Shown here in pieces: positions 1 to 7,450 of a stretch of 7,450 nucleotides of DNA (its first letter is position 1; every line of letters begins with the position of its first letter). The stretch lies in assembly GCA_000004985.1 (NCBI GenBank), contig GG739137.1; one strand, written 5' to 3'. The notes beneath the pieces are model-generated. The model saw nothing but the letters and a program-made list of their open reading frames with translations, was not told the origin of the DNA and made no database searches. This stretch comes from Naegleria gruberi (taxonomy: Eukaryota). The position numbers and the translations under genes were made by a program.

Positions 1-375
1 CAGAGATCCAAACCATTCCCTCCCCCAATGAAACTCTGCAAGGAAATGGTAGAAGGTATGGGAGGAAGTAAGAGTGAAGGTTACATCAAATTTAAAGAGC
101 TATGTGTGACTGCTTACAATATTTTGAGAAAGTCGGCTCACTTGATTTTGAACATGTTTATTCTCATGATTGATGCCAATATTCGTGATTTGGAACATGG
201 TGCAGGTATGGATCCTATTAGAAATATCATGAAAGTTCAGGAAAAGTTTAAACTTGACCTAAATGATCAAGAAGCAAACGTCTACATGCAAAGTATTATC
301 AATGAAAGTGAAAAAGCTCTCTTCCCTCAACTCATGGAAAATATCCACAGATGGGCTCAATATTGGAGATCCTAA
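1..375 (+). CDS. VPS34: Phosphatidylinositol 3-kinase class III (Vps34/PIK3C3), C-terminal part of the catalytic domain. It is 5'-partial: the frame is open to the window edge. Stop TAA is at 373-375.
   Basis: Frame 1 is open from nt 1 ([22 protein letters not shown]...). It is collinear, without gaps, with the human PIK3C3 C-terminus (recalled as ...[29 protein letters not shown]...LILNLFSLMVDANIPDI...[31 protein letters not shown]...IHKFAQYWRK*) and ends with the same AQYWR-x-stop. The ORF track's start at 28 is an internal Met. Confidence 0.85.
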   Translation, partial: [124 protein letters not shown]

Positions 376-550: not shown

Positions 551-605
551 TAATTTTTATTTTTGAAATTGAAAAGAATTTTCTTATTGAGTGTGTACTG
601 TATGG

Positions 606-1124
606 ATGGAAGAACTTTTGAGAAGGAGACAAAAATTAGAGGACGAATTAAAGATTCTCCAACAAGAAATCTATCAATCGGAGGAGAATTACATTCAAGA
701 TACATGGCATAATGGTAATGCAATCAAAGGCTACGATGGCTATTTATCAAACAAATCATCACAGAGAGGAAAATCATCATCATCAGCTTCAACCTCTTCA
801 TCAACATACAAAATCAAGGAGAAGGACAGGATATTCTCAGATTCATCTCTATTTCTCAAGTTTGATAAGAAGGGACGTAGAGAGAGGGATACTTCATGTC
901 TTTCCTATGGAAGAATTGAATTTGTTGATGAATCGTCTTTAATTTGGGATCCAGTTCCAATTAATATTCATCATTCAATGTCATCTTTTTCTATGAGTAA
1001 TAATAATATTGTTAATAGTAGTGAAGAAGAGAATGTCATGCTAAATGGTGATCAAAGCCTTTCGGATCAACATTTAATGCCTCCACCACCAAAACAAATT
1101 AGAAATCAATTTTCTAACAAGTGA
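606..1124 (+). CDS. EAF6: Eaf6/MEAF6-family protein (NuA4/HBO1 histone acetyltransferase complex subunit). It is a single exon of 172 aa with stop TGA at 1122-1124.
   Basis: The translation MEELLRRRQKLEDELKILQQEIYQSEENYIQDTWHNGNAIKGYDGYL...YKIKEKDRIFSDSS matches the conserved MEAF6 core (human ...[30 protein letters not shown]...RKFKEAERLFSKSS; yeast Eaf6 ...GNIIKGFD...NNDRIFSLSS). The first in-frame ATG is at 606. The ORF-track start at 591 is a GTG. Confidence 0.75.
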   Translation: MEELLRRRQKLEDELKILQQEIYQSEENYIQDTWHNGNAIKGYDGYLSNKSSQRGKSSSSASTSSSTYKIKEKDRIFSDSSLFLKFDKKGRRERDTSCLSYGRIEFVDESSLIWDPVPINIHHSMSSFSMSNNNIVNSSEEENVMLNGDQSLSDQHLMPPPPKQIRNQFSNK

Positions 1125-1179: not shown

Positions 1180-4100
1180 NNNNNNNNNNNNNNNNNNNNN
1201 NNNNNNNNNNNNNNNNNNNNNNNNNNNNNNNNNNNNNNNNNNNNNNNNNNNNNNNNNNNNNNNNNNNNNNNNNNNNNNNNNNNNNNNNNNNNNNNNNNNN
1301 NNNNNNNNNNNNNNNNNNNNNNNNNNNNNNNNNNNNNNNNNNNNNNNNNNNNNNNNNNNNNNNNNNNNNNNNNNNNNNNNNNNNNNNNNNNNNNNNNNNN
1401 NNNNNNNNNNNNNNNNNNNNNNNNNNNNNNNNNNNNNNNNNNNNNNNNNNNNNNNNNNNNNNNNNNNNNNNNNNNNNNNNNNNNNNNNNNNNNNNNNNNN
1501 NNNNNNNNNNNNNNNNNNNNNNNNNNNNNNNNNNNNNNNNNNNNNNNNNNNNNNNNNNNNNNNNNNNNNNNNNNNNNNNNNNNNNNNNNNNNNNNNNNNN
1601 NNNNNNNNNNNNNNNNNNNNNNNNNNNNNNNNNNNNNNNNNNNNNNNNNNNNNNNNNNNNNNNNNNNNNNNNNNNNNNNNNNNNNNNNNNNNNNNNNNNN
1701 NNNNNNNNNNNNNNNNNNNNNNNNNNNNNNNNNNNNNNNNNNNNNNNNNNNNNNNNNNNNNNNNNNNNNNNNNNNNNNNNNNNNNNNNNNNNNNNNNNNN
1801 NNNNNNNNNNNNNNNNNNNNNNNNNNNNNNNNNNNNNNNNNNNNNNNNNNNNNNNNNNNNNNNNNNNNNNNNNNNNNNNNNNNNNNNNNNNNNNNNNNNN
1901 NNNNNNNNNNNNNNNNNNNNNNNNNNNNNNNNNNNNNNNNNNNNNNNNNNNNNNNNNNNNNNNNNNNNNNNNNNNNNNNNNNNNNNNNNNNNNNNNNNNN
2001 NNNNNNNNNNNNNNNNNNNNNNNNNNNNNNNNNNNNNNNNNNNNNNNNNNNNNNNNNNNNNNNNNNNNNNNNNNNNNNNNNNNNNNNNNNNNNNNNNNNN
2101 NNNNNNNNNNNNNNNNNNNNNNNNNNNNNNNNNNNNNNNNNNNNNNNNNNNNNNNNNNNNNNNNNNNNNNNNNNNNNNNNNNNNNNNNNNNNNNNNNNNN
2201 NNNNNNNNNNNNNNNNNNNNNNNNNNNNNNNNNNNNNNNNNNNNNNNNNNNNNNNNNNNNNNNNNNNNNNNNNNNNNNNNNNNNNNNNNNNNNNNNNNNN
2301 NNNNNNNNNNNNNNNNNNNNNNNNNNNNNNNNNNNNNNNNNNNNNNNNNNNNNNNNNNNNNNNNNNNNNNNNNNNNNNNNNNNNNNNNNNNNNNNNNNNN
2401 NNNNNNNNNNNNNNNNNNNNNNNNNNNNNNNNNNNNNNNNNNNNNNNNNNNNNNNNNNNNNNNNNNNNNNNNNNNNNNNNNNNNNNNNNNNNNNNNNNNN
2501 NNNNNNNNNNNNNNNNNNNNNNNNNNNNNNNNNNNNNNNNNNNNNNNNNNNNNNNNNNNNNNNNNNNNNNNNNNNNNNNNNNNNNNNNNNNNNNNNNNNN
2601 NNNNNNNNNNNNNNNNNNNNNNNNNNNNNNNNNNNNNNNNNNNNNNNNNNNNNNNNNNNNNNNNNNNNNNNNNNNNNNNNNNNNNNNNNNNNNNNNNNNN
2701 NNNNNNNNNNNNNNNNNNNNNNNNNNNNNNNNNNNNNNNNNNNNNNNNNNNNNNNNNNNNNNNNNNNNNNNNNNNNNNNNNNNNNNNNNNNNNNNNNNNN
2801 NNNNNNNNNNNNNNNNNNNNNNNNNNNNNNNNNNNNNNNNNNNNNNNNNNNNNNNNNNNNNNNNNNNNNNNNNNNNNNNNNNNNNNNNNNNNNNNNNNNN
2901 NNNNNNNNNNNNNNNNNNNNNNNNNNNNNNNNNNNNNNNNNNNNNNNNNNNNNNNNNNNNNNNNNNNNNNNNNNNNNNNNNNNNNNNNNNNNNNNNNNNN
3001 NNNNNNNNNNNNNNNNNNNNNNNNNNNNNNNNNNNNNNNNNNNNNNNNNNNNNNNNNNNNNNNNNNNNNNNNNNNNNNNNNNNNNNNNNNNNNNNNNNNN
3101 NNNNNNNNNNNNNNNNNNNNNNNNNNNNNNNNNNNNNNNNNNNNNNNNNNNNNNNNNNNNNNNNNNNNNNNNNNNNNNNNNNNNNNNNNNNNNNNNNNNN
3201 NNNNNNNNNNNNNNNNNNNNNNNNNNNNNNNNNNNNNNNNNNNNNNNNNNNNNNNNNNNNNNNNNNNNNNNNNNNNNNNNNNNNNNNNNNNNNNNNNNNN
3301 NNNNNNNNNNNNNNNNNNNNNNNNNNNNNNNNNNNNNNNNNNNNNNNNNNNNNNNNNNNNNNNNNNNNNNNNNNNNNNNNNNNNNNNNNNNNNNNNNNNN
3401 NNNNNNNNNNNNNNNNNNNNNNNNNNNNNNNNNNNNNNNNNNNNNNNNNNNNNNNNNNNNNNNNNNNNNNNNNNNNNNNNNNNNNNNNNNNNNNNNNNNN
3501 NNNNNNNNNNNNNNNNNNNNNNNNNNNNNNNNNNNNNNNNNNNNNNNNNNNNNNNNNNNNNNNNNNNNNNNNNNNNNNNNNNNNNNNNNNNNNNNNNNNN
3601 NNNNNNNNNNNNNNNNNNNNNNNNNNNNNNNNNNNNNNNNNNNNNNNNNNNNNNNNNNNNNNNNNNNNNNNNNNNNNNNNNNNNNNNNNNNNNNNNNNNN
3701 NNNNNNNNNNNNNNNNNNNNNNNNNNNNNNNNNNNNNNNNNNNNNNNNNNNNNNNNNNNNNNNNNNNNNNNNNNNNNNNNNNNNNNNNNNNNNNNNNNNN
3801 NNNNNNNNNNNNNNNNNNNNNNNNNNNNNNNNNNNNNNNNNNNNNNNNNNNNNNNNNNNNNNNNNNNNNNNNNNNNNNNNNNNNNNNNNNNNNNNNNNNN
3901 NNNNNNNNNNNNNNNNNNNNNNNNNNNNNNNNNNNNNNNNNNNNNNNNNNNNNNNNNNNNNNNNNNNNNNNNNNNNNNNNNNNNNNNNNNNNNNNNNNNN
4001 NNNNNNNNNNNNNNNNNNNNNNNNNNNNNNNNNNNNNNNNNNNNNNNNNNNNNNNNNNNNNNNNNNNNNNNNNNNNNNNNNNNNNNNNNNNNNNNNNNNN

Positions 4101-6377
4101 NNNNNNNNNNNNNNNNNNNNNNNNNNNNNNNNNNNNNNNNNNNNNNNNNNNNNNNNNNNNNNNNNNNNNNNNNNNNNNNNNNNNNNNNNNNNNNNNNNNN
4201 NNNNNNNNNNNNNNNNNNNNNNNNNNNNNNNNNNNNNNNNNNNNNNNNNNNNNNNNNNNNNNNNNNNNNNNNNNNNNNNNNNNNNNNNNNNNNNNNNNNN
4301 NNNNNNNNNNNNNNNNNNNNNNNNNNNNNNNNNNNNNNNNNNNNNNNNNNNNNNNNNNNNNNNNNNNNNNNNNNNNNNNNNNNNNNNNNNNNNNNNNNNN
4401 NNNNNNNNNNNNNNNNNNNNNNNNNNNNNNNNNNNNNNNNNNNNNNNNNNNNNNNNNNNNNNNNNNNNNNNNNNNNNNNNNNNNNNNNNNNNNNNNNNNN
4501 NNNNNNNNNNNNNNNNNNNNNNNNNNNNNNNNNNNNNNNNNNNNNNNNNNNNNNNNNNNNNNNNNNNNNNNNNNNNNNNNNNNNNNNNNNNNNNNNNNNN
4601 NNNNNNNNNNNNNNNNNNNNNNNNNNNNNNNNNNNNNNNNNNNNNNNNNNNNNNNNNNNNNNNNNNNNNNNNNNNNNNNNNNNNNNNNNNNNNNNNNNNN
4701 NNNNNNNNNNNNNNNNNNNNNNNNNNNNNNNNNNNNNNNNNNNNNNNNNNNNNNNNNNNNNNNNNNNNNNNNNNNNNNNNNNNNNNNNNNNNNNNNNNNN
4801 NNNNNNNNNNNNNNNNNNNNNNNNNNNNNNNNNNNNNNNNNNNNNNNNNNNNNNNNNNNNNNNNNNNNNNNNNNNNNNNNNNNNNNNNNNNNNNNNNNNN
4901 NNNNNNNNNNNNNNNNNNNNNNNNNNNNNNNNNNNNNNNNNNNNNNNNNNNNNNNNNNNNNNNNNNNNNNNNNNNNNNNNNNNNNNNNNNNNNNNNNNNN
5001 NNNNNNNNNNNNNNNNNNNNNNNNNNNNNNNNNNNNNNNNNNNNNNNNNNNNNNNNNNNNNNNNNNNNNNNNNNNNNNNNNNNNNNNNNNNNNNNNNNNN
5101 NNNNNNNNNNNNNNNNNNNNNNNNNNNNNNNNNNNNNNNNNNNNNNNNNNNNNNNNNNNNNNNNNNNNNNNNNNNNNNNNNNNNNNNNNNNNNNNNNNNN
5201 NNNNNNNNNNNNNNNNNNNNNNNNNNNNNNNNNNNNNNNNNNNNNNNNNNNNNNNNNNNNNNNNNNNNNNNNNNNNNNNNNNNNNNNNNNNNNNNNNNNN
5301 NNNNNNNNNNNNNNNNNNNNNNNNNNNNNNNNNNNNNNNNNNNNNNNNNNNNNNNNNNNNNNNNNNNNNNNNNNNNNNNNNNNNNNNNNNNNNNNNNNNN
5401 NNNNNNNNNNNNNNNNNNNNNNNNNNNNNNNNNNNNNNNNNNNNNNNNNNNNNNNNNNNNNNNNNNNNNNNNNNNNNNNNNNNNNNNNNNNNNNNNNNNN
5501 NNNNNNNNNNNNNNNNNNNNNNNNNNNNNNNNNNNNNNNNNNNNNNNNNNNNNNNNNNNNNNNNNNNNNNNNNNNNNNNNNNNNNNNNNNNNNNNNNNNN
5601 NNNNNNNNNNNNNNNNNNNNNNNNNNNNNNNNNNNNNNNNNNNNNNNNNNNNNNNNNNNNNNNNNNNNNNNNNNNNNNNNNNNNNNNNNNNNNNNNNNNN
5701 NNNNNNNNNNNNNNNNNNNNNNNNNNNNNNNNNNNNNNNNNNNNNNNNNNNNNNNNNNNNNNNNNNNNNNNNNNNNNNNNNNNNNNNNNNNNNNNNNNNN
5801 NNNNNNNNNNNNNNNNNNNNNNNNNNNNNNNNNNNNNNNNNNNNNNNNNNNNNNNNNNNNNNNNNNNNNNNNNNNNNNNNNNNNNNNNNNNNNNNNNNNN
5901 NNNNNNNNNNNNNNNNNNNNNNNNNNNNNNNNNNNNNNNNNNNNNNNNNNNNNNNNNNNNNNNNNNNNNNNNNNNNNNNNNNNNNNNNNNNNNNNNNNNN
6001 NNNNNNNNNNNNNNNNNNNNNNNNNNNNNNNNNNNNNNNNNNNNNNNNNNNNNNNNNNNNNNNNNNNNNNNNNNNNNNNNNNNNNNNNNNNNNNNNNNNN
6101 NNNNNNNNNNNNNNNNNNNNNNNNNNNNNNNNNNNNNNNNNNNNNNNNNNNNNNNNNNNNNNNNNNNNNNNNNNNNNNNNNNNNNNNNNNNNNNNNNNNN
6201 NNNNNNNNNNNNNNNNNNNNNNNNNNNNNNNNNNNNNNNNNNNNNNNNNNNNNNNNNNNNNNNNNNNNNNNNNNNNNNNNNNNNNNNNNNNNNNNNNNNN
6301 NNNNNNNNNNNNNNNNNNNNNNNNNNNNNNNNNNNNNNNNNNNNNNNNNNNNNNNNNNNNNNNNNNNNNNNNNNNNN
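1180..6377. other. Run of 5198 N (assembly gap or masked region). No sequence information.
   Basis: Uninterrupted n from 1180 to 6377. ORF-track proteins consisting of X arise from translating this run. Confidence 0.99.
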
Positions 6378-6955
6378 ATTGCCACATTACTATCAGTATG
6401 GATTTTAATCTTGGAGTCTCTTGGGATAACTTTAGCTGCTGTAATAATAGAGCATATTTCAGCTACATTATTTGAATATTGATCATTAATATGGAGGGAT
6501 AAAGATCTAACTGGAGTGTTCATATTGGAGCAATCATAGATATTAATCCCCATTCCAGTCTTTGATTCGAGTCTTGATCCGTCAGTGTGAATATCAAAAT
6601 TATTTCCTGTTTTGATTTTTTTCAACTTGAATTTCATTTCATTTTTCTTAAGTGTGAGGTTGTATTCTTTTAGTACTAGTAGCCATTTCGAATAAATATT
6701 GTCTTTCGTTTCCTCACAGTGCTTGATACCATGTTTGAAAGCTTTCTTGACGAGTAAATTGTTACTGTTAGCAATTAAGGTCATGGTTCTTAGGTTCATT
6801 CTTTCAGAAAATTCTACAATAGATGGTAGTCCTAATCCACCTTTTTCTAATGGTAAGTGGAATAAGCTGGTTGGTGTTTTCCTGTCCATATATAGTTTTC
6901 TTCTAATTGCTCCTCTAATGGCTATATCAATTTGAGATGAAAAGAAATATGGCAA
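6378..6955 (-). mobile_element. Non-LTR (LINE-like) retrotransposon fragment: 3' part of the RT (GGLGLP thumb motif) plus an RNase H domain. It is 5'-truncated (or at least its frame begins at a stop) and continues into the N gap.
   Basis: The - strand frame is open for 192 codons from 6955 down to the gap. ...HLPLEKGGLGLPSIVEFSERMNLRTM (GGLGL at 6827-6841) resembles the conserved post-RT GGL(G/T)LP region of LINE ORF2s (L1 ORF2 has ...KAGGITLPDFKLYYKA). Then comes FDIHTDGS (catalytic D at 6581-6583), then TGMGI, then NNVAEICSIITAAKVI (E at 6458-6460) and KIKIHTDSNVA (D at 6392-6394). This is the standard RNase H DG...E...D signature in the correct order. Confidence 0.7.
6378..6955 (-). CDS. 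Retroelement pol/ORF2 fragment (RT C-terminal region plus RNase H). It is partial at both ends: the upstream frame is closed by TAG at 6956-6958 and the downstream end is lost in the gap.
   Basis: Same open frame as the mobile_element entry. A 579-nt stop-free frame in ~70% AT DNA is very unlikely by chance. The nominal start at 6953-6955 is TTG, not ATG. Confidence 0.65.
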
Positions 6956-7443
6956 CTAATACTAGACCTAACAAACGTAAATCTAATTACAATCTTAATC
7001 AAATAATTAATGTAATTTGCTACAAAGATGTTACTAACGAATTTGTTGAACAAATTACAGACCTACTCGGTGACTCTGTAATCATTAGAGTTAATCGATA
7101 CTGTAATAATATTATTAATGTAATTTGCCCTGATGAAACCAGTTATAAAGAGTGTTTCAATCAATTAGTGCAAGGAAGTCATGGAGGAAAATTCATATTA
7201 GAATGCTTTCCATCTCCAGCAATCTTTAATCCTAAACCTTTAGCACTTTCACATACTACTTCCAGTAAAACTACTCACCTTAAAATGCTAGAAAATATTA
7301 TTAGCAAATATATATTGGAAGATAATATTTCTGTTGAGGAACTCTACACTAACTATTCTCATAACCAATTTATAATTAGAATATCATTTGAGGATCAAAC
7401 TATTGCTCTCAAATGGCACAAAATCTTGGTTAAATCAATATAA
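6937..7443 (+). CDS. Hypothetical protein, 168 aa, with no family recognised. It has a basic N-terminus (TRPNKRKSNYN) and an in-frame internal direct repeat (N-x-I-I-N-V-I-C).
   Basis: ATG at 6937 (second ATG at 6949) and stop TAA at 7441-7443. An in-frame stop lies 21 nt upstream at 6916-6918. The ORF is 507 nt in AT-rich DNA. The 18-mer at(a/t)attaatgtaatttgc occurs at 7003-7020 and 7111-7128, 108 nt apart and in frame. It overlaps the start of the - strand retroelement frame by 19 nt. Confidence 0.45.
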   Translation: MKRNMATNTRPNKRKSNYNLNQIINVICYKDVTNEFVEQITDLLGDSVIIRVNRYCNNIINVICPDETSYKECFNQLVQGSHGGKFILECFPSPAIFNPKPLALSHTTSSKTTHLKMLENIISKYILEDNISVEELYTNYSHNQFIIRISFEDQTIALKWHKILVKSI

Positions 7444-7450
7444 AACTATA

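What the first reader, a model, noticed from the sequence alone, without database searches (positions are those of the whole stretch)
6378..6955. LINE-like retrotransposon copy with an intact RT-thumb plus RNase H frame running into the assembly gap
The - strand frame is stop-free for its full visible 192 codons and carries unmistakable RNase H catalytic residues (D at 6581-6583, E at 6458-6460, D at 6392-6394). Upstream of these is the GGLGLP post-RT motif typical of non-LTR ORF2 proteins. The frame starts immediately after a TAG (6956-6958) with no upstream RT fingers or palm, which is the classic picture of a 5'-truncated LINE insertion. RNase H is only present in a subset of non-LTR clades (for example I, R1, LOA, Tad1, Ingi and some L1-like elements), so the clade assignment is informative. 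The lack of degeneration suggests a young, possibly still-active family.
Basis: partly seen in the sequence, partly recalled or inferred. Interest (0 to 1): 0.55.

Follow-up and report, generated by a model that had tools for sequence, protein, structure and literature searches.

The report
Rearranged Naegleria LINE fragment, RNase H-bearing
This is a dead, broken copy of a young "jumping gene" (a non-LTR retrotransposon with an RNase H domain) in the amoeba Naegleria gruberi. It is ordinary, except that its broken end is fused head-to-head to an inverted piece of the same element's other gene.

Summary
The minus-strand frame 6955→6378 has 192 stop-free codons (chance ~8e-8). The D/E/D codons sit exactly where stated, and Pfam RNase_H passes its cut-off for the N-terminal half of the domain.

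The window is a whole 7450-bp scaffold of Naegleria gruberi NEG-M. The fragment matches ORF2 residues ~793-977 of a Heterolobosea-restricted LINE family built as ORF1, then ORF2 = APE endonuclease, RT, thumb, RNase H and a CCHC tail. The family profile matches solved R2 and human L1 proteins and no retroviral RT.

Two corrections:
- ORF2 homology ends at ~6932-6934, not at the TAG (6956-6958).
- The DNA upstream is not host flank. It is the same family's ORF1 (residues 155-327 of gene model EFC36452.1), on the opposite strand, running from ~6935 to the scaffold end. It is annotated as the gene NAEGRDRAFT_76768.

So two fragments of one LINE family meet head-to-head with at most 5 nt unassigned. 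The likeliest cause is an inversion during target-primed reverse transcription (twin or dual priming). A nested insertion or a chimeric 1-kb contig cannot be excluded. The clade is unresolved. Low interest.

The parts
6378..6934 (-). 3' part of LINE ORF2: RT thumb region, linker and the N-terminal half of RNase H. It corresponds to residues ~793-977 of the 1228-aa full-length relative P0032 and is cut off by the N run.
   Evidence: tblastn: P0032 aa 786-977 at 73% identity; P0001 100% over 140 aa; P0025 155/156. dN/dS = 0.11 against L003 over codons 9-192. 23 relatives in the exhaustive search, all named ones from Naegleria or Willaertia.
6824..6841 (-). GGLGLP thumb motif, conserved across the family as GGLG(L/I/V)P.
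   Evidence: Coordinates; family alignment.
6378..6595 (-). N-terminal half of the RNase H domain, with catalytic D125 (6581-6583), E166 (6458-6460) and D188 (6392-6394). The H and the fourth D lie in the gap.
   Evidence: Pfam PF00075 30.6 bits > 25.8, aa 121-190 (6386-6595) = profile positions 5-69/141; the last two codons (6378-6385) continue the domain up to the gap. Alignment to 3u3g. In P0001, identical over the shared 140 aa, the domain is complete (profile 5-139, E = 9e-12) and reads 'AHKDKENIKVDLLAK'.
6932..6937 (.). Head-to-head junction between the ORF2 fragment (minus strand) and the ORF1 fragment (plus strand); at most ~5 nt unassigned.
   Evidence: The exact match to P0025 ORF1 starts at M = 6937-6939, and the preceding codon differs (E vs K). 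ORF2 identity falls to random levels beyond codon 8, which is 6932-6934.
6935..6958 (-). These are the antisense of the ORF1 fragment, not ORF2 sequence and not the element boundary.
   Evidence: 7/24 nt identity to L003 ORF2. The plus strand here reads (E)MKRNMATN, which equals P0025 aa 155-162.
6935..7450 (+). Inverted ORF1 fragment of the same LINE family (residues 155-327 of gene model P0025/EFC36452.1), running off the scaffold end. Annotated in GenBank as the gene NAEGRDRAFT_76768 (EFC35579.1, from the ATG at 6949). Two 1-nt deletions in T-runs (~7403 and ~7430) create the apparent stop at 7441-7443.
   Evidence: P0026 is identical to 6949-7440 and sits on a 7450-bp contig. P0025 aa 154-310 matches 6934-7404, 156/157. 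With two Ts restored, 6937-7450 equals P0025 aa 155-327 exactly. L001 ORF1, directly upstream of ORF2 on the same strand, hits this ORF at E = 2e-16.
5557..6377 (-). Inferred, not seen: the rest of ORF2 (second half of RNase H plus a ~200-aa C-terminal region with a CX2C...HX4C motif; 251 codons and the stop) and a short 3' UTR, all hidden in the assembly gap. The coordinates are an estimate and assume the gap size is correct.
   Evidence: P0001 continues 251 aa beyond the window's last codon. The 3' UTRs of L001 and L003 are ~45-65 nt.

Best explanation
What it is: window 6378-6934 (minus strand) is the 3' part of ORF2 of a young non-LTR (LINE) retrotransposon family of Naegleria gruberi. Complete members encode ORF1 followed by ORF2. 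ORF2 consists of an apurinic-type endonuclease, a reverse transcriptase, a thumb with a GGLGLP motif, a type-1 RNase H (D-E-D-H-D) and a Cys/His tail.

How such elements work (established knowledge): they copy themselves by target-primed reverse transcription. The endonuclease nicks the target DNA, the RT extends the nick on the element's RNA, and the element's own RNase H presumably removes the RNA from the RNA:cDNA hybrid so that the second strand can be made.

This copy is dead. It lacks the first ~790 codons of ORF2 (endonuclease and RT core). Its truncated 5' end is joined, with at most 5 nt unassigned, to the truncated 5' end of an ORF1 fragment of the same family lying on the other strand (6935-7450).

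Most likely origin (inferred, not shown): one insertion event in which cDNA synthesis was primed on both strands of the target (twin priming, or dual priming with two RNAs) and the two incomplete cDNAs were then joined.

Shown: the identity of both fragments, the family architecture, the orientation and the position of the junction. Inferred: the mechanism of the inversion, the content of the gap, and the RNase H function.
For: - Identity: the exhaustive search finds 23 relatives. P0001 (N. gruberi EFC35914.1) is 100% identical, and full-length ORF2s P0003 and P0032 are 51% and 73% identical.
- Architecture: PF14529 + RVT_1 + RNase_H in P0003, P0032, P0045 and P0051. The profile is collinear with human L1 ORF2p and also hits R2 and E. 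coli RNase HI.
- Host and scaffold: P0026 lies on a 7450-bp N. gruberi contig.
- ORF1 identity of the plus-strand ORF: P0025 holds it upstream of, and collinear with, the APE and RNase H parts. L001 has ORF1 (>=523 aa) 20 nt upstream of ORF2 on the same strand, homologous at E = 2e-16 (window) and 3e-33 (P0025).
- Junction position.
[quoted passage not shown] The inverted piece (ORF1) comes from further 5' in the element than the direct piece (ORF2 3' end), and the two are joined at their 5'-proximal ends.
- Both pieces are identical in protein sequence to the same reference copy, P0025.
- Coding constraint: dN/dS = 0.11.
Against: - The mechanism of the inversion is untested. Both outer ends of the composite are invisible: one lies in the 5198-N gap, the other beyond the scaffold end. 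So target-site duplications, the 3' tail, and the position where the inverted segment ends cannot be checked.
- No DNA of the same subfamily was obtainable, so microhomology at the junction cannot be scored.
- The right-hand contig is only 1073 bp on a tiny repeat-bearing scaffold, where chimeric clones or mis-joins are plausible.
- Twin priming has been documented for L1. I found no report of it for this kind of element.
Confidence: 0.45

Rival explanations
1. Nested or adjacent independent insertions. A 5'-truncated copy (minus strand) inserted into ORF1 of a pre-existing plus-strand copy of the same family. The head-to-head junction would then simply be the 5' junction of the younger insertion.
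For: The visible anatomy is equally compatible. Small unplaced scaffolds are enriched for repeat clusters. Several other ~7.4-7.9-kb N. gruberi scaffolds carry fragments of this family.
Against: LINEs make up only a small fraction of Naegleria genomes: 0.25% in N. lovaniensis, and total repeats are 5.1% in N. gruberi (PMC6125883). A random hit into another copy of the same family is therefore unlikely a priori, unless insertions cluster. Both fragments are equally undiverged from P0025, so there is no sign of an older host copy.
Confidence: 0.3
2. Assembly or cloning artefact. The 1073-bp right-hand contig is a chimera of reads or clone inserts from two different copies of the family, and the head-to-head junction does not exist in the genome.
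For: The contig is about the length of one or two Sanger reads. It is made entirely of repeat sequence on a 7450-bp scaffold that is 70% gap. Two single-base T-run deletions in its last 47 bases point to low read quality at that end. The junction sequence was not found in any other collection searched, and no independent assembly carrying the ORF could be found.
Against: There is nothing direct. The junction lies mid-contig, more than 500 bp from either end, where read quality is normally good. The joined pieces have the orientation and order expected of a biological inversion, which a random chimera would show only about one time in four.
Confidence: 0.2
3. An LTR-retrotransposon or retroviral pol fragment, or a host RNase H gene, rather than a non-LTR element.
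For: RNase H downstream of RT is also the order in LTR elements. Databases name family members only 'RNase H type-1 domain-containing protein' or 'predicted protein'.
Against: Full-length relatives have an N-terminal APE endonuclease and no protease or integrase. The family profile hits R2 and L1 ORF2p but no retroviral RT at E <= 1. The frame is truncated and fused to an inverted ORF1, so it is not a host gene.
Confidence: 0.02

Closest known systems
[quoted passage not shown]
   Same: ORF2 order of APE endonuclease, RT, thumb and RNase H downstream of the RT. D-E-D-H-D catalytic pattern with H rather than the 'archaeal' R (PMC4640811). Cys/His motif at the C-terminus. Separate ORF1 upstream.
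   Different: No close sequence relative outside Heterolobosea. The nearest other proteins are ~26% identical and unnamed. The thumb/RNase H query hit no trypanosomatid ingi/L1Tc protein at E <= 1e-3. ORF1 has no Pfam match and no gag-type zinc knuckles. Clade membership was not tested by phylogeny.
Human LINE-1 (L1) ORF2p and L1 5'-inverted insertions made by twin priming
   Same: The family profile is collinear with L1 ORF2p over APE and RT. The window shows two fragments of one element in opposite orientation joined at their 5'-proximal ends, with the inverted piece coming from further 5'. This is the architecture described for twin priming (PMC2837659).
   Different: Animal L1 has no RNase H. 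L1 ORF1p (Transposase_22) is not matched. The target-site duplications, the tail and the outer end of the inverted segment, which define a twin-priming product, are not visible here.
R2 retrotransposon proteins (solved structures 8gh6, 9nl2, 9dou)
   Same: Best-scoring solved relatives of the RT plus thumb region (E = 5e-28).
   Different: R2 uses a C-terminal restriction-like endonuclease and has neither an APE nor an RNase H domain. The similarity is limited to the RT.

Membership tests
Non-LTR (LINE) retrotransposon, APE type | Reverse transcriptase of the non-LTR type | tested here: met
   Met for the family: RVT_1 in P0003, P0032, P0006, P0010, P0013, P0045 and P0051. The best solved relatives are R2 and L1 ORF2p, with no retroviral RT. 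The window copy itself lacks the RT core; only the thumb remains.
Non-LTR (LINE) retrotransposon, APE type | Apurinic/apyrimidinic-type endonuclease N-terminal to the RT | tested here: met
   PF14529 scores above its cut-off in P0003 (31.3 > 27.4) and P0045 (30.1) and is weaker in P0032. The profile is collinear with the L1 ORF2p endonuclease plus RT. The endonuclease is absent from the window copy.
Non-LTR (LINE) retrotransposon, APE type | The window sequence is homologous to the ORF2 of such elements | tested here: met
   73% identity to P0032 aa 786-977, 52% to P0003, 100% to P0001.
Non-LTR (LINE) retrotransposon, APE type | Target-site duplications and a 3' tail; no LTRs | not testable with these tools
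   The 3' end lies in the N gap and the other end beyond the scaffold. N. gruberi genomic DNA was not retrievable. Related contigs L001 and L003 show ORF1 + ORF2 and a short 3' UTR, but they are too short to rule LTRs in or out.
RNase H type 1 (PF00075) | Profile match above the curated cut-off | tested here: met
   30.6 bits against 25.8 for the half-domain in the window. 45.8 bits for the complete domain in P0001, identical over the shared 140 aa.
RNase H type 1 (PF00075) | Catalytic D-E-D-(H)-D residues | tested here: met
   D125, E166 and D188 are in the window at the stated coordinates. The H and the last D are hidden in the gap and were seen only in P0001. Enzymatic activity was not tested.
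A named non-LTR clade (I, Tad1, Loa, R1, Ingi, Nimb, Proto1, L1 ...) | Placement of the RT domain within the clade in a phylogeny with reference elements | not tested
   No Repbase or Dfam reference set is available here. The nearest non-heterolobosean proteins are ~26% identical and unnamed. No description of Naegleria LINE families was found in the literature.
Twin-priming (5'-inverted) insertion | Two fragments of the same element in opposite orientation, joined at their 5'-proximal ends, with the inverted one derived from further 5' in the element | tested here: met
   ORF2 aa ~793 onwards lies on the minus strand and ORF1 aa 155-327 on the plus strand, meeting at 6932-6937.
Twin-priming (5'-inverted) insertion | A single pair of target-site duplications around both fragments, with the inverted segment ending next to the start of the direct segment | not testable with these tools
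   Both outer ends lie outside the readable sequence.
Twin-priming (5'-inverted) insertion | Microhomology at the internal junction (frequent, but not obligatory) | tested here: inconclusive
   At most ~5 nt are unassigned at the junction. Without DNA of the same subfamily, the overlap cannot be scored.

The most novel reading that the evidence does not exclude
The family may represent a deep-branching, Heterolobosea-specific clade of RNase H-bearing APE-type LINEs that falls outside the 32 clades recognised in Repbase. This locus would then be a case of twin-priming-type inversion in a protist element far from L1, implying that the two-strand priming side reaction is a general property of APE-type target-primed reverse transcription.
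Probability: 0.2. Interest if true: 0.4.

Novelty: new member of a known kind. Interest (0 to 1): 0.2.

Why it matters
It matters little beyond annotation.
- At least one annotated N. gruberi 'gene' (NAEGRDRAFT_76768), and several 'predicted proteins', are fragments of a LINE family.
- This tiny scaffold holds a rearranged repeat copy next to two ordinary host genes.
- The family is young (copies identical in protein sequence) and so far restricted to Naegleria and Willaertia. It could serve as a marker of recent retrotransposition in Heterolobosea, and as an extra data point for the evolution of RNase H in non-LTR elements.
- If the head-to-head junction is real and insertion-born, it extends twin or dual priming beyond L1. 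That would be a modest but useful mechanistic point.

Tried and rejected
- The word-indexed protein search with the 192-aa fragment and with the plus-strand ORF found nothing, although a 100% identical N. gruberi protein exists. Only the exhaustive search found the family.
- Exact-protein look-ups for genomic DNA of N. gruberi copies or of the host genes all failed. Breakpoints could therefore be mapped only against proteins and against a 75%-identical sister subfamily.
- The metagenome scan for close relatives and for the exact junction sequence found nothing.
- No tRNA gene or Rfam family occurs in the window, so there is no sign of tRNA-gene targeting. The repeat scan gave only short chance-level repeats, apart from a 25-nt internal repeat in ORF1.
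- The PDB search with the fragment alone was uninformative.
- The single-sequence AlphaFold model of the ORF1 fragment had mean pLDDT 50. Its b-a-b-b-a-b core is only a weak hint of an RRM-like fold, so I ran no fold search on it.
- The 3' UTR hairpins of related elements are no more stable than shuffled sequence.
- A ciliate-type genetic code, which would read through the TAG, was rejected. The Vps34-type gene ends at a TAA directly after the conserved C-terminal '...AQYWRS' (that this is the family's natural C-terminus rests on my own knowledge). All frames upstream of the TAG also contain TGA stops.
- My recollection of a Repbase 'Ambal' clade gave nothing usable. The papers held only list the clade name.

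Full report
**The observation.** The minus-strand translation from 6958 to 6378 is a TAG followed by 192 sense codons. The frame ends only because it meets a run of 5198 N at 1180-6377. With the local base composition (31% G+C, stop probability 0.08 per codon) the chance of 192 open codons is about 8e-8.
GGLGLP is at 6824-6841.
- Pfam RNase_H scores 30.6 bits against a curated cut-off of 25.8. It covers profile positions 5-69 of 141, so only the N-terminal half of the domain is present before the gap.
- The residues align with the canonical D, E and D of a solved RNase H.
- No RVT_1 match is reported for the fragment. That is expected, because PF00078 does not cover the thumb.

**Whose sequence it is.** The word-indexed search found nothing. 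The exhaustive HMMER search found 23 relatives.
- P0001 is 100% identical over residues 53-192 and continues for another 251 residues.
- The cluster look-up names the sources: Naegleria gruberi NEG-M, N. fowleri, N. lovaniensis and Willaertia magna.
- One cluster member, P0026 (EFC35579.1, NAEGRDRAFT_76768), lies on a contig of exactly 7450 bases. The window is therefore a complete small scaffold of the N. gruberi assembly, and the N run is a genuine scaffold gap.
- The left contig carries ordinary host genes: the C-terminus of a Vps34-type PI 3-kinase (PF00454) and a NuA4/Eaf6 subunit (PF09340, E = 1e-21). It has no similarity to the element.

**What kind of element.** Full-length relatives P0003 (1213 aa), P0032 (1228 aa), P0045 and P0051 have, in order, an 'endonuclease-reverse transcriptase' APE domain (PF14529), RVT_1 and RNase_H.
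- A profile of eight such proteins hits solved R2 proteins at 5e-28. It aligns collinearly with human L1 ORF2p over endonuclease plus RT at 2e-15, and with the whole of E. coli RNase HI at 2e-4. No retroviral or LTR-type RT appears at E <= 1, although these abound in the PDB.
- P0001 shows what lies in the gap: the second half of RNase H with 'AHKDKENIKVDLLAK', which supplies the H and the fourth D, giving D-E-D-H-D rather than the arginine-bearing 'archaeal' type described in PMC4640811. After that comes a ~200-residue tail with a CX2C...HX4C motif.
- Against the DNA of a sister subfamily (L003), codons 9-192 are 75% identical with dN/dS = 0.11. The frame has therefore evolved as coding sequence.

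**The boundary is not the TAG.** Identity to L003 falls to 7/24 in codons 1-8 and to 15/60 upstream. The block 'HAK.ISLFTHLSKTN', conserved in all full-length relatives just before 'ID..IR', is missing. ORF2 homology thus ends at about 6932-6934. The fragment corresponds to ORF2 residues ~793-977 of 1228, so the endonuclease and RT core (~790 codons) are absent.

**What lies upstream.** The plus-strand ORF 6937-7443, which has no Pfam match and no word-index homologue, is the annotated gene P0026.
- Its sequence recurs inside P0025 (EFC36452.1), a 1179-aa N. gruberi gene model. There it lies upstream of, and collinear with, the endonuclease, thumb, RNase H and tail.
- tblastn places P0025 residues 154-310 on 6934-7404 (+) at 156/157, and residues 773-928 on 6847-6380 (-) at 155/156.
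- On L001, an independent contig of a 52%-identical relative, an ORF of at least 523 aa ends 20 nt before ORF2 on the same strand. It is homologous to the window's plus-strand ORF (E = 2e-16) and to the N-terminal part of P0025 (E = 3e-33).
- So 6935-7450 (+) is ORF1 of the same LINE family, starting at residue 155.
- If one T is restored in each of two T-runs (~7403 and ~7430), the plus strand reads P0025 residues 155-327 exactly, right up to the scaffold end. The 'stop' at 7441 is therefore the result of two single-base deletions in the last 47 bases, which may be read-end errors.

**Anatomy.** Two fragments of one family lie head-to-head with at most about 5 nt unassigned at 6932-6937. The ORF2 3' part runs leftwards into the gap. 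The ORF1 part runs rightwards off the scaffold.

**Mechanism.** Elements of this architecture transpose by target-primed reverse transcription (established knowledge; PMC2837659). The RNase H is presumed to degrade the RNA of the RNA:cDNA hybrid. This copy cannot act on its own.

There are three readings of the head-to-head junction.
1. *Inversion during insertion* (about 0.45). In twin priming, the second target strand primes internally on the same RNA. [quoted passage not shown] The window shows exactly this order and orientation, and both pieces are identical in protein sequence to the same reference copy. Dual priming with two RNAs would look the same here.
2. *Nested insertion* (about 0.3). 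A 5'-truncated copy inserted into ORF1 of an older copy. This is equally compatible with what is visible, but less likely a priori in a genome where LINEs are a fraction of a percent.
3. *Chimeric contig* (about 0.2). The right-hand contig is 1073 bp of pure repeat on a scaffold that is 70% gap.

The tests that would separate these readings are target-site duplications, the outer end of the inverted segment, and independent reads across the junction. All of them need sequence that lies in the gap or beyond the scaffold. Attempts to obtain such sequence failed.

**Comparison with known families.** By architecture, the family resembles the RNase H-bearing APE-type clades listed in PMC4640811: the I group (Ingi, I, Nimb, Loa, R1, Tad1, Loner, Outcast) and Proto1.
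- I could not place it in a clade. No reference RT set is available, the nearest non-heterolobosean proteins are ~26% identical and unnamed, and no trypanosomatid ingi/L1Tc protein was hit by the thumb/RNase H query.
- The literature held here mentions Naegleria LINEs only as RepeatModeler counts (PMC6125883).
- Repbase may nevertheless already hold consensus sequences for this family; I could not check.

**Verdict.** The boundary and the 'classic 5'-truncation' picture need correcting: this is a composite of two inverted fragments of one young LINE family. It is a new (or at least undescribed in the accessible literature) member of a well-known kind, of low general interest. It has modest value for annotation and, if the junction is verified, as an example of priming-associated inversion outside L1.

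Noticed in passing
window 6949-7443 (+): The GenBank gene NAEGRDRAFT_76768 (EFC35579.1, 'predicted protein', 164 aa) is a fragment of LINE ORF1, not a host gene. Several other N. gruberi 'predicted proteins' (EFC35914.1, EFC35586.1, EFC36452.1, EFC36780.1, EFC44578.1) are also pieces of this family.
   Followed up: yes
window ~7403 and ~7430 (+): Two single-T deletions in T-runs within the last 47 bases of the scaffold shift the ORF1 frame twice and create the apparent stop at 7441-7443. With both restored, the sequence equals P0025 exactly. They could be read-end errors or real mutations.
   Followed up: partly
window 1-375 (+) and 603-1124 (+): Two ordinary, intron-less host genes on the left contig: the C-terminus of a Vps34-type PI 3-kinase (ends ...HRWAQYWRS, PF00454) and a NuA4/Eaf6 histone acetyltransferase subunit (PF09340, E = 1e-21). 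Their exact sequences are not in the protein collection. The scaffold might be an alternative haplotype carrying a polymorphic insertion; this was not testable.
   Followed up: partly
proteins P0002/P0027, P0004, P0025 (N. gruberi gene models; no window coordinates): Three different gene models of the family lack the whole RT core. Each jumps from just after '...IP..WK' or 'ALK' to just before or within the thumb. P0002 and P0027 are both 813 aa, fall in one 90%-identity cluster and lie on different scaffolds, which suggests a propagated RT-deleted derivative rather than a gene-model artefact. P0004's deletion ends at 'GW|KAQEIDRAIRG', within about 3 codons of the window's ORF2 breakpoint.
   Followed up: no
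L001 5232-5279, L003 3899-3965, L002 3258-3350: Related complete elements have very short 3' UTRs. L001 and L003, whose ORF2 proteins are only 53% identical, share a 19-nt motif (GAGAATCTGAATAGATTCG, a 6-bp hairpin). All three have AATAAA followed by a T7-8 run, and no poly(A) or tandem-repeat tail is visible. The hairpins are no more stable than shuffled sequence.
   Followed up: partly
window 6996-7020 and 7104-7128 (+): A 25-nt direct repeat (88% identical) inside the ORF1 fragment encodes the twice-occurring peptide 'I(I)NVIC'. In the low-confidence AlphaFold model, both copies fall on beta strands of a b-a-b-b-a-b (RRM-like) unit at residues ~20-91, pLDDT 60-79.
   Followed up: partly
L003 (ENA ERZ929261 metagenome contig): A 'metagenome' contig encodes an intact 1228-aa ORF2 that is 100% identical, over the part they share, to an N. 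gruberi protein (P0061). The sample therefore contained N. gruberi or a very close relative, and this sister subfamily has an apparently intact ORF2.
   Followed up: no
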